Positions 1 to 555 of a stretch of 555 bases of DNA are shown piece by piece. A model generated the notes under the pieces. The model ran no database searches and had not been told where the DNA came from. It was given only the letters and a program-made list of their open reading frames with translations. A program made the translations under genes and the position numbers. Source of the DNA: a phage; the sequence record EF517106.1; one strand, 5' to 3'. How positions within the stretch are numbered: position 1 is the first letter of the stretch; every line of letters starts with the position of its first letter.

Positions 1-111
1 TAGAGTGCATAAAGTATGCATAATGGTGTACCTAGAGTGACCTCTAAGAATGGTGATTATATTGTATTAGTATCACCTTAACTTAAGGACCAACATAAAG
101 GGAGGAGACTC
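1..111 (+). other. Non-coding leader/intergenic region upstream of gene 19.5; in T7 it lies just downstream of the phiOR promoter, whose consensus (TAATACGACTCACTATAGGGAGA) is not in this window
   Basis: Seen: every ATG-initiated ORF here is 21 codons or shorter and lacks a Shine-Dalgarno site. Recognition: the sequence matches my memory of the T7 region between phiOR and gene 19.5. No T7 promoter consensus is present in the window on either strand. Confidence 0.5.
98..107 (+). promoter_or_regulatory. Shine-Dalgarno ribosome-binding site for gene 19.5
   Basis: Seen: AAGGGAGGAG at 98-107, with the GGAGG core at 101-105 placed 6 nt upstream of the ATG at 112-114. This is strong complementarity to the 16S rRNA 3' end at canonical spacing. 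Confidence 0.8.
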
Positions 112-261
112 ATGTTTCGCTTATTGTTGAACCTACTGCGGCATAGAGTCACCTACCGATTTCTTGTGGTACTTTGTGTTGCCCTTGGGTACGCATCTCT
201 TACTGGAGACCTCAGTTCACTGGAGTCTGTCGTTTGCTCTATACTCACTTGTAGCGATTAG
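112..261 (+). CDS. 19.5: Small hydrophobic protein of 49 aa, T7 gene 19.5 homolog; function not established to my knowledge
   Basis: Seen: ATG 112-114 to TAG 259-261 translates to MFRLLLNLLRHRVTYRFLVVLCAALGYASLTGDLSSLESVVCSILTCSD. It has a strong RBS, a basic N-terminus (R3, R10, H11, R12, R16) and a hydrophobic core (FLVVLCAALGYASL). Recognition: the length and its position 240 bp before the terminal repeat match T7 gene 19.5 as I remember it (about 39389-39538). Confidence 0.9.
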   Translation: MFRLLLNLLRHRVTYRFLVVLCVALGYASLTGDLSSLESVVCSILTCSD

Positions 262-500
262 GGTCTTCCTGACCGACTGATGGCTCACCGAGGGATTCAG
301 CGGTATGATTGTATCACACCACTTCATCCCTATAGAGTCAAGTCCTAAGGTATATCCATAAAGAGCCTCTAATGGTCTATTCTAAGGTCTATACCTAAAG
401 ATAGGCCATCCTATCAGTGTCACCTAAAGAGGGTCTTAGAGAGGGCCTATGGAGTTCCTATAGGGTCCTTTAAAATATACCATAAAAATCTAAGTGACTA
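262..500. promoter_or_regulatory. Non-coding unique region between gene 19.5 and the terminal repeat; probable cis-acting packaging/concatemer-maturation signal region (pac-type) of a T7-like phage
   Basis: Seen: no ORF longer than 22 codons and none with an RBS; dense reiterated short motifs (CCTAAGG/CCTAAAG/CATAAAG, GGTCTAT, AGGGTCTT) and the palindrome CCTATAGG. Established knowledge, recalled not verified: in T7/T3 the sequences just left of the right terminal repeat are needed in cis for concatemer processing and packaging. The exact pac boundaries are not something I can place from sequence. Confidence 0.45.
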
Positions 501-555
501 TCTCACAGTGTACGGACCTAAAGTTCCCCCATAGGGGGTACCTAAAGCCCAGCCA
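501..555. repeat. First 55 bp of the T7-type direct terminal repeat (continues past the window end)
   Basis: Recognition: TCTCACAGTGTACGGACCTAAAGTTCCCCCATAGGGGGTACCTAAAGCCCAGCCA matches the start of the T7 genome / terminal repeat as I recall it. The 240 bp distance from the gene 19.5 stop agrees with T7 coordinates (TR-R start about 39778). The second copy is not in the window, so the repeat itself cannot be demonstrated here. Confidence 0.8.
526..538. repeat. GC inverted repeat CCCCC-ATA-GGGGG inside the terminal repeat (potential 5-bp stem, 3-nt loop hairpin)
   Basis: Seen directly: CCCCC at 526-530 and GGGGG at 534-538 are perfectly complementary around the ATA loop at 531-533. It is flanked on both sides by CCTAAAG heptamers (517-523 and 541-547). 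Any function is inferred. Confidence 0.6.

What the first reader, a model, noticed from the sequence alone, without database searches (positions are those of the whole stretch)
1..555. Window is the right end of a T7-like phage genome: phiOR leader, gene 19.5, pac-type region, terminal repeat start
The ORF product, the spacing of elements and the terminal-repeat start at 501 all fit the T7 map as I recall it (window about T7 39278-39832). Identifying the locus explains everything in the window with known biology, so a novel system is unlikely here. The sequence may differ from reference T7 at a few positions, but I cannot confirm individual differences from memory.
Basis: partly seen in the sequence, partly recalled or inferred. 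Interest (0 to 1): 0.4.

Follow-up and report, generated by a model that had tools for sequence, protein, structure and literature searches.

The report
Mutation-laden copy of phage T7's right end
The window is a well-known stretch near the right end of bacteriophage T7 (small gene 19.5, DNA-maturation signals, start of the terminal repeat), and its only unusual feature is six single-base changes of the kind a chemical mutagen or cytosine deamination leaves.

Summary
The window aligns without gaps to T7 (NC_001604/V01146) 39278-39832. Gene 19.5 is at 112-261. The 160-bp direct terminal repeat starts at 501, and 501-555 is identical to T7 bases 1-55. The phiOR promoter lies 44-66 bp upstream of the window, so only its transcript leader is present. 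The concatemer-junction pause site (ATCTGTT) lies beyond the window's right edge.

The window differs from reference T7 at six positions, all G:C>A:T transitions: 117 (synonymous), 179 (A23V in gp19.5), 312, 355, 381 and 492. Five of the six alleles were found in no public record. Natural relatives show this class in only 27% of differences (P about 4e-4 for six of six). A known mutagenised T7 line shows 93% and a similar density.

The window is therefore best read as T7 from a mutagenised or deaminated source, not a natural variant and not a new system. This is known biology and of low interest.

The parts
1..111 (+). Leader of the phiOR (T7 RNA polymerase) transcript, +50 to +160. It is AT-rich (30-38% GC) and carries the Shine-Dalgarno GGAGG at 101-105, 6 nt before the gene 19.5 ATG. 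The promoter itself lies upstream of the window.
   Evidence: The phiOR start is annotated at T7 39229, and the 23-bp consensus sits at T7 39212-39234. No promoter match occurs inside the window. GC profile. The RNA fold is not significant, z=-1.6.
112..261 (+). Gene 19.5: a 49-aa small hydrophobic protein (Pfam DUF5465, PHROG 2193). It is nonessential and a candidate secondary holin or lysis-timing factor. This copy carries F2F (117) and A23V (179).
   Evidence: ORF; annotation; translation comparison. Pfam 41.9 bits against a cutoff of 25, and PHROG E=6e-25. Functional literature: PMC2680503 and PMC8365609.
291..331 (.). Imperfect inverted repeat (19-nt arms, 3-nt loop) at T7 39568-39608, centred about 190 bp left of the terminal repeat. 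It is the likely 'M-hairpin' element of T7 concatemer processing, and the 312 C>T change is in the loop.
   Evidence: I1. DNA fold is -7.2 kcal/mol on the + strand and -11.1 on the - strand, z -2.8 and -4.9, identical for the reference and window alleles. It lies inside a 67-bp run (282-348) that is invariant in 8 natural genomes. The M-hairpin is described as adjacent to gene 19.5 in PMC2680503. Its exact published coordinates are recalled, not verified.
329..463 (+). Array of CCTAAAG-like heptamers (CCTATAG, CCTAAGG, CATAAAG, CCTAAAG), almost all in + orientation, flanking the terminal repeat. Further copies lie inside the repeat at 517 and 541.
   Evidence: 13 matches with at most 1 mismatch against 2.4+-1.6 expected, and 0 of 200 shuffles reach 13. 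Direct-repeat families D2-D4 and D7.
462..500 (+). Invariant block immediately left of the terminal repeat. The mature left end is generated at the 500/501 boundary, and the 492 G>A change lies 9 bp from that boundary.
   Evidence: Positions 462-512 are invariant in 8 natural Teseptimavirus genomes. The boundary is defined by identity to T7 base 1.
501..555 (+). First 55 bp of the 160-bp direct terminal repeat.
   Evidence: Identical to T7 1-55 and to T7 39778-39832. Terminal repeats are annotated at the same place in phiA1122 and 13a.
117..117 (+). C>T, synonymous (TTC>TTT, Phe2).
   Evidence: The allele is absent from the phage records and IMG/VR.
179..179 (+). C>T, Ala23Val in the hydrophobic segment of gp19.5. 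Ala23 is invariant in 7 natural relatives.
   Evidence: The allele is absent from the public collections.
312..312 (+). C>T in the loop of the inverted repeat.
   Evidence: The allele is absent.
355..355 (+). C>T at a naturally polymorphic site. T is also present in the T7 lab lines P and P82 and in phages JeanTinguely and 64795_ec1.
381..381 (+). C>T inside the invariant 356-404 block of the heptamer array.
   Evidence: The allele is absent.
492..492 (+). G>A, 9 bp left of the terminal-repeat boundary, inside the invariant 462-512 block.
   Evidence: The allele is absent from the phage records and IMG/VR. The single genome-contig hit is a chance 21-mer in a Lactobacillus MAG.

Best explanation
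The window is bacteriophage T7, genome positions 39278-39832. From left to right it holds the transcribed leader downstream of the phiOR promoter; gene 19.5 (a 49-aa membrane-type protein implicated in lysis timing); the non-coding concatemer-processing region (inverted repeat or M-hairpin, then CCTAAAG-like heptamers, then a conserved block at the left-end cut site); and the first 55 bp of the 160-bp direct terminal repeat. In replicating concatemers this stretch is the left flank of the junction. There the terminase makes the fixed cuts, and the single shared repeat is duplicated so that each packaged genome gets a copy at both ends. This much is shown by identity to the annotated reference and by the literature. 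It is inferred that the six differences from reference T7, all G:C>A:T transitions with five being C>T on the non-template strand, are an induced or damage-type mutation load. Possible causes are alkylating or hydroxylamine mutagenesis as in laboratory T7 mutation-accumulation lines, or cytosine deamination. They are not natural strain divergence, and none of them creates a new element.
For: Locus: 555/555 bases aligned without gaps to T7 39278-39832 at 98.9%. Gene 19.5 and phiOR annotation come. Window 501-555 is identical to T7 1-55. gp19.5 matches DUF5465 and PHROG 2193. Anatomy of 262-500: an inverted repeat with significant DNA hairpin energy, heptamer enrichment of 13 against 2.4 expected, and the three longest invariant runs among 8 natural genomes all lying in this non-coding region. 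Mutation signature: all 6 differences are G:C>A:T. In 7 natural relatives this class makes up 13 of 48 distinct differences, giving P=4e-4 for six of six, and P=1e-5 under uniform substitution. Five of the six alleles occur in none of 50,697 phage records (with a working positive control). They are also absent from IMG/VR. A 37-mer spanning two of the alleles is absent from the viral, metagenome and genome contig collections. The A23V protein is not on record. Calibrator: the lab-mutagenised T7 isolate P differs from its ancestor at 0.785% of sites, 93% of them G:C>A:T, with C>T exceeding G>A on the + strand. Its 555-bp windows carry 4.2+-2.1 changes, and 26% carry six or more. Lines K, K115, P and P82 each carry their own private set of such changes in this same window. 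G:C>A:T dominance after nitrosoguanidine or hydroxylamine treatment of T7 is stated in PMC6042481.
Against: Six sites is a small sample. The strand bias (5:1) is not significant (P=0.12). The purine-5' context typical of MNNG is met at only 4 of 6 sites, which fits both the mutagen and the background. The window matches none of the four deposited mutagenised lines and shares only the polymorphic 355 allele with P. The source of the sequence is unknown, so read-level damage, consensus errors or deliberate editing cannot be separated from a real viable lineage. Three changes sit in blocks that are invariant in nature. That is somewhat unexpected for a phage that must still process concatemers, although lines K, K115 and P also carry changes in or near these blocks. 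The identification of 291-331 with the published M-hairpin rests on my recollection of its position, because the primary papers are not held.
Confidence: 0.85

Rival explanations
1. A natural T7-like isolate (another Teseptimavirus T7 strain) whose 1% divergence from the reference arose by ordinary evolution.
For: Natural relatives at 95-99% identity are common: 131 records. One of the six alleles (355 T) is a natural polymorphism.
Against: The natural difference spectrum in this very region is only 27% G:C>A:T, so six of six has P=4e-4. Five alleles occur at sites invariant in all sampled relatives and in no public record. The window carries none of the changes that recur among natural relatives, such as those at 229-230 and 461.
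Confidence: 0.04
2. Wild-type T7 DNA whose sequence record carries artefactual C>T/G>A calls (cytosine deamination in damaged or chemically treated template, low-coverage consensus errors) or deliberate in-silico edits. No phage lineage with these bases exists.
For: All six changes are the deamination class, and five are on one strand. The haplotype exists nowhere else. Three changes hit otherwise invariant functional non-coding blocks, which is what unselected noise would do.
Against: The same pattern, density and hits in conserved blocks are seen in real, viable mutagenised T7 lines, so nothing requires an artefact. Uniform random in-silico substitution is excluded (P=1e-5).
Confidence: 0.15
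3. Enzyme-driven or transcription-coupled cytosine deamination of the non-template strand. Candidates are T7 RNA-polymerase-associated deamination, an engineered deaminase-polymerase fusion, or a host single-strand DNA deaminase, rather than a chemical mutagen.
For: 5 of 6 changes are C>T on the + strand, which is the non-template strand for all T7 genes. T7 RNA polymerase-induced mutation of the T7 genome is described by Beletskii et al. 2000, cited in PMC8923235.
Against: The strand bias is not significant with six sites (P=0.12). The chemically mutagenised line P shows the same direction of bias: 159 C>T against 127 G>A although G outnumbers C. There is no consistent TC or CC context at the six sites.
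Confidence: 0.1

Closest known systems
Escherichia phage T7 reference genome (V01146 / NC_001604), positions 39278-39832
   Same: Colinear and ungapped, with 549 of 555 bases identical. Gene 19.5 frame and length, inverted repeat, heptamer array and terminal-repeat boundary are all the same.
   Different: Six G:C>A:T transitions: one synonymous, one A23V and four non-coding.
Laboratory-mutagenised T7 isolates K, K115, P and P82 (AY264775-AY264778)
   Same: A T7 backbone carrying 4-6 private, almost exclusively G:C>A:T substitutions in this same 555 bp. Genome-wide density in P is 0.785%, 93% of it G:C>A:T. P and P82 share the 355 T allele.
   Different: None of their other changes (for example 101, 268, 329 and 534 in P; 106, 277, 366 and 518 in K) is in the window. 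None of the window's other five changes is in them. The window is therefore not one of these deposited genomes.
Natural Teseptimavirus relatives (phiA1122, 13a, JeanTinguely, EmilieLinder, 64795_ec1, EG1, vB_SmaP-UFV01)
   Same: Same element order, a 49-aa gp19.5, and identical 282-348, 356-404 and 462-512 blocks.
   Different: They differ from T7 by a balanced mix of transitions and transversions and by leader indels or mosaicism. They keep the reference base at five of the window's six variant sites.

Membership tests
Phage T7 genome segment 39278-39832 (Teseptimavirus T7) | Full-length, colinear, near-identical nucleotide match to the reference | tested here: met
   555/555 aligned without gaps, 98.9% identity, + strand.
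Phage T7 genome segment 39278-39832 (Teseptimavirus T7) | Gene 19.5 ORF at the annotated position and length | tested here: met
   The 112-261 ORF of 49 aa equals T7 39389-39538, with one amino-acid change.
Phage T7 genome segment 39278-39832 (Teseptimavirus T7) | Direct terminal repeat beginning at 39778, identical to the genome's left end | tested here: met
   Window 501-555 is identical to T7 1-55. Only 55 of the 160 bp lie in the window.
Phage T7 genome segment 39278-39832 (Teseptimavirus T7) | phiOR class III promoter upstream of gene 19.5 | not testable with these tools
   The promoter is at T7 39212-39234, 44-66 bp upstream of window base 1. No promoter lies inside the window.
gp19.5 family (Pfam DUF5465 / PHROG 2193) | Profile match above the curated threshold | tested here: met
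   DUF5465 scores 41.9 bits against a cutoff of 25. PHROG 2193 gives E=5.9e-25 over the full length.
gp19.5 family (Pfam DUF5465 / PHROG 2193) | Single hydrophobic (membrane-spanning) segment; holin-like or lysis-timing activity | tested here: inconclusive
   Crude Kyte-Doolittle maximum of 2.2 over residues 17-31; A23V raises it slightly. A TM prediction and lysis phenotypes are reported in PMC2680503 and PMC8365609. The activity itself cannot be tested here.
T7 M-hairpin (concatemer-processing element) | Inverted repeat able to form a hairpin, located between gene 19.5 and the terminal repeat | tested here: met
   Arms at 291-309 and 313-331. dG is -7.2 and -11.1 kcal/mol, z -2.8 and -4.9. 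It is invariant in natural relatives. PMC2680503 describes the element as adjacent to gene 19.5.
T7 M-hairpin (concatemer-processing element) | Coincidence with the experimentally mapped hairpin end, and a requirement for normal concatemer processing | not testable with these tools
   The primary papers (Chung, Nardone and Hinkle 1990; Kim, Kim and Chung 1997) are not held. The mapped position, about 190 bp left of the left-end site, is my recollection.
Class II T7 RNA polymerase pause/termination site of the concatemer junction (CJ) | Strictly conserved heptamer ATCTGTT | tested here: not met
   The heptamer is at T7 161-167, immediately right of the repeat and beyond the window. The window has no exact copy, and near-matches occur at chance frequency: 12 against 16.8 expected. 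I first took reference ATCTGAG at 488-494 for this site and rejected that.
Headful 'pac' packaging site | Packaging series initiated at pac, giving permuted, terminally redundant ends without fixed termini | tested here: not met
   The T7 records are linear with exact fixed ends and a 160-bp direct repeat. Relatives have their terminal repeats annotated at the homologous place. 'pac-type' is therefore only a loose label.
Chemically mutagenised T7 lines (MNNG / hydroxylamine) | Substitutions overwhelmingly G:C>A:T at about 0.8-1% density | tested here: met
   6 of 6 in the window at 1.08%, against 93% and 0.785% in isolate P. Literature statement in PMC6042481.
Chemically mutagenised T7 lines (MNNG / hydroxylamine) | MNNG context: mutated G preceded by a purine | tested here: inconclusive
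   4 of 6 in the window, against 84% in isolate P and 51% background. The result is compatible with both.
Chemically mutagenised T7 lines (MNNG / hydroxylamine) | Identity with a deposited mutagenised genome | tested here: not met
   Only the 355 allele is shared with P and P82. The other five alleles are in no record.

The most novel reading that the evidence does not exclude
The window comes from a viable T7 lineage hypermutated by strand-specific cytosine deamination rather than by a laboratory chemical. The deamination would be transcription-coupled or driven by a host or engineered deaminase. The lineage would tolerate changes in three non-coding blocks (M-hairpin loop, heptamer array, left-end cut-site flank) that are invariant in all sampled natural relatives.
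Probability: 0.05. Interest if true: 0.35.

Novelty: already known. Interest (0 to 1): 0.1.

Why it matters
It matters little for discovery. Every element in the window is part of the classic T7 map, and no new system is hidden here. The practical value is twofold. First, the window can be closed as explained, with exact coordinates and corrected labels: the promoter and the CJ pause site are outside it, and this is not a headful pac site. Second, the sequence is flagged as a non-reference T7 with a mutagen- or deamination-type signature, which tells anyone using the source dataset that it probably derives from a mutagenised stock or from damaged or edited DNA. If the lineage is real and viable, it adds three data points on tolerated changes in strongly conserved concatemer-processing sequences.

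Tried and rejected
(1) I first thought reference ATCTGAG at 488-494 (mutated by the 492 change) was the class II T7 RNA polymerase pause site of the concatemer junction. I rejected this. The conserved heptamer ATCTGTT is at T7 161-167, right of the repeat and outside the window (PMC/bioRxiv 10.64898/2026.02.12.705533). Near-matches in the window are at chance level.

(2) I searched for the source haplotype. The 37-mer, 21-mer and 41-mer scans of the phage records, IMG/VR, metagenome and genome contigs, the exact-protein look-up, and the plasmid and E. coli genome searches found nothing. The one exception was a 21-mer in a Lactobacillus MAG whose flanks are unrelated, so it is a chance match.

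(3) The 41-mer allele test has a blind spot. Carriers with a second mismatch nearby are missed; 64795_ec1 carries 355 T but was not hit.

(4) The Rfam scan gave only a sub-threshold chance hit. The leader RNA fold was not significant. The sigma-70 promoter and terminator scan was at chance level.

(5) The literature search for 'pacB' only matched 'PacBio'. The primary papers on T7 packaging, the M-hairpin, the 2003 mutagenised lines and Springman 2010 are not held, so I could not compare the six positions with published mutation tables.

(6) Mutation context was tested as a way to tell MNNG from other causes, but six sites are too few.

(7) Codon-position bias of natural variation in gene 19.5 (8/4/8) gives no strong coding signal among such close relatives.

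Full report
**Observation.** The 555-base window was read and searched against 50,697 phage records. The best hits are T7 itself. All 555 bases align without gaps, on the + strand, to V01146/NC_001604 positions 39278-39832 at 98.9% identity. No plasmid and no complete E. coli genome contains the sequence.

The reference annotation puts the phiOR transcription start at 39229 and gene 19.5 at 39389-39538. Gene 19.5 therefore corresponds to the 49-codon ATG ORF at window 112-261. The 23-bp phiOR promoter consensus lies at T7 39212-39234, 44-66 bp upstream of window base 1. Nothing resembling it is inside the window. Window 1-111 is thus the transcript leader (+50 to +160) and not the promoter.

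The T7 record is 39,937 bp long with a 160-bp direct repeat, so the right copy starts at 39778, which is window 501. Window 501-555 is identical to T7 bases 1-55. The window ends 105 bp before the physical right end.

**Anatomy of the non-coding part.** The strongest inverted repeat has 19-nt arms at 291-309 and 313-331 around a 3-nt loop. As single-stranded DNA it folds at -7.2 kcal/mol on the + strand and -11.1 on the - strand, with z-scores of -2.8 and -4.9 against shuffles. Its centre is about 190 bp left of the repeat boundary.

The literature I could read describes an 'M-hairpin' adjacent to gene 19.5. [quoted passage not shown] It also describes a hairpin-ended intermediate in T7 concatemer processing (Chung, Nardone and Hinkle 1990, cited in PMC4925675 and PMC4281155). 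I equate 291-331 with that element. The exact mapped position is my recollection, because the primary papers are not held.

To the right of the inverted repeat, CCTAAAG-like heptamers are strongly over-represented. There are 13 matches with at most one mismatch against 2.4+-1.6 expected, 0 of 200 shuffles reach 13, and 11 of the 13 are on the + strand.

In an alignment with T7 and seven natural Teseptimaviruses, the three longest invariant runs are all non-coding. They are 282-348 (which contains the inverted repeat), 462-512 (which spans the left-end cut site at 500/501) and 356-404. Gene 19.5 varies at 14% of sites and the repeat itself at 33%. These blocks are therefore the most constrained sequence in the window, as expected for cis-acting maturation signals.

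The class II T7 RNA polymerase pause/termination site of the concatemer junction (described in 10.64898/2026.02.12.705533) has its conserved heptamer ATCTGTT at T7 161-167. That is just right of the repeat and outside this window. I had initially mistaken the reference ATCTGAG at 488-494 for it and withdrew that idea.

**Gene 19.5.** The product matches Pfam DUF5465 above its threshold (41.9 against 25 bits) and PHROG 2193 over its full length. Both are of unknown function. Experimental-evolution work reports a predicted membrane-spanning segment. It also reports compensatory changes (A24D, E38G) when the holin or endolysin is disabled, and raised 19.5 mRNA in holin-deleted lines. This makes gp19.5 a candidate secondary holin or lysis-timing factor (PMC2680503 and PMC8365609). 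The 49-aa frame is intact in all relatives.

**The differences from reference T7.** There are six, and all are G:C>A:T transitions:
- 117 C>T (Phe2, synonymous)
- 179 C>T (Ala23Val)
- 312 C>T (loop of the inverted repeat)
- 355 C>T
- 381 C>T
- 492 G>A (9 bp left of the repeat)

Ala23 is invariant in the seven natural relatives. Valine keeps the segment hydrophobic. The 312 change does not alter the predicted hairpin.

To ask whether these alleles exist elsewhere, I queried 41-mers centred on each variant. Megablast needs a 28-base exact word, so only carriers of the allele can hit. Five gave no hit. The control at 355 hit exactly T7 isolates P and P82 and phage JeanTinguely. The test misses carriers with a second nearby mismatch; 64795_ec1 also has 355 T.

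Variant 21-mers are absent from IMG/VR. A 37-mer spanning 355 and 381 is absent from the viral, metagenome and genome contig collections. The A23V protein is not on record. The single 21-mer hit in a Lactobacillus MAG has unrelated flanks and is chance.

**What the differences mean.** Among the seven natural relatives, G:C>A:T transitions are 13 of 48 distinct differences from T7 in this region (27%). Six of six therefore has P of about 4e-4, and under uniform random substitution about 1e-5.

The T7 records AY264775-AY264778 (isolates K, K115, P, P82) are laboratory lines. Each carries its own private, almost purely G:C>A:T set of 4-6 changes in the same 555 bp. Genome-wide, isolate P differs from its ancestor AY264774 at 307 of 39,106 sites (0.785%), and 93% of these are G:C>A:T. 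There are 159 C>T against 127 G>A on the + strand although G is the commoner base. A purine lies 5' of the mutated G in 84% of cases. Its 555-bp windows carry 4.2+-2.1 changes, and 26% have six or more.

The window's 6 of 555 lies well inside that distribution. PMC6042481 states that G:C>A:T changes dominate after nitrosoguanidine or hydroxylamine mutagenesis of T7. The window is not one of the deposited lines, since it shares only the polymorphic 355 allele with P.

With six sites, neither the 5:1 strand bias (P=0.12) nor the purine context (4 of 6) can separate four possibilities: alkylation, hydroxylamine, spontaneous or transcription-coupled deamination (Beletskii et al. 2000, cited), and read-level damage.

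**Conclusion.** The finding is confirmed and the interpretation supported. This is textbook T7 with corrected labels. The only extra is that the copy carries a mutagen- or deamination-type load, including changes in three blocks that nature keeps invariant.

Nothing else of note was found. There is no Rfam family, no significant leader structure, and no promoter or terminator signal above chance. Novelty: already known. Interest: low.

Noticed in passing
window 282-348, 356-404, 462-512: Among T7 and seven natural Teseptimaviruses, the three longest perfectly invariant runs are non-coding. They are more conserved than gene 19.5 (14% variable) or the terminal repeat itself (33% variable). This points to tight cis-acting constraints on concatemer processing.
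   Followed up: partly
window 488-494 (reference ATCTGAG) and L008 161-167 (ATCTGTT): Both borders of the terminal repeat carry an ATCTG pentamer. One lies 9-13 bp left of the repeat start. The other, the known class II pause heptamer, lies immediately right of the repeat end. The window's 492 G>A destroys the left one. Near-matches to the heptamer are at chance frequency in the window, so the symmetry may be coincidence.
   Followed up: partly
L004 (JeanTinguely) 1-400 and L011 (13a) 1-270, aligned to window 1-89: JeanTinguely and 13a have a different, shorter phiOR leader that aligns poorly with window 1-89. JeanTinguely has a putative homing endonuclease gene just upstream. This suggests a mosaic boundary between phiOR and the gene 19.5 ribosome-binding site.
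   Followed up: no
L016 vs L018 (whole genomes of T7 wild type AY264774 and isolate P AY264777): In the mutagenised line P, per-site C>T on the + (non-template) strand is about 1.4 times G>A: 159 of 9,038 C against 127 of 10,291 G. This strand asymmetry runs in the same direction as the window's 5:1.
   Followed up: partly
records PV223880-PV223883, under the match to window 1-555: These T7 records annotate a 'cohesive-end site' in this region, although T7 has direct terminal repeats rather than cos ends. This looks like an automatic-annotation oddity.
   Followed up: no
window 179 (gp19.5 residue 23): A23V lies next to Ala24. An A24D change there was reported to compensate for holin deletion and to abolish the predicted transmembrane segment (PMC2680503). 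A23V is conservative and slightly raises hydropathy.
   Followed up: partly
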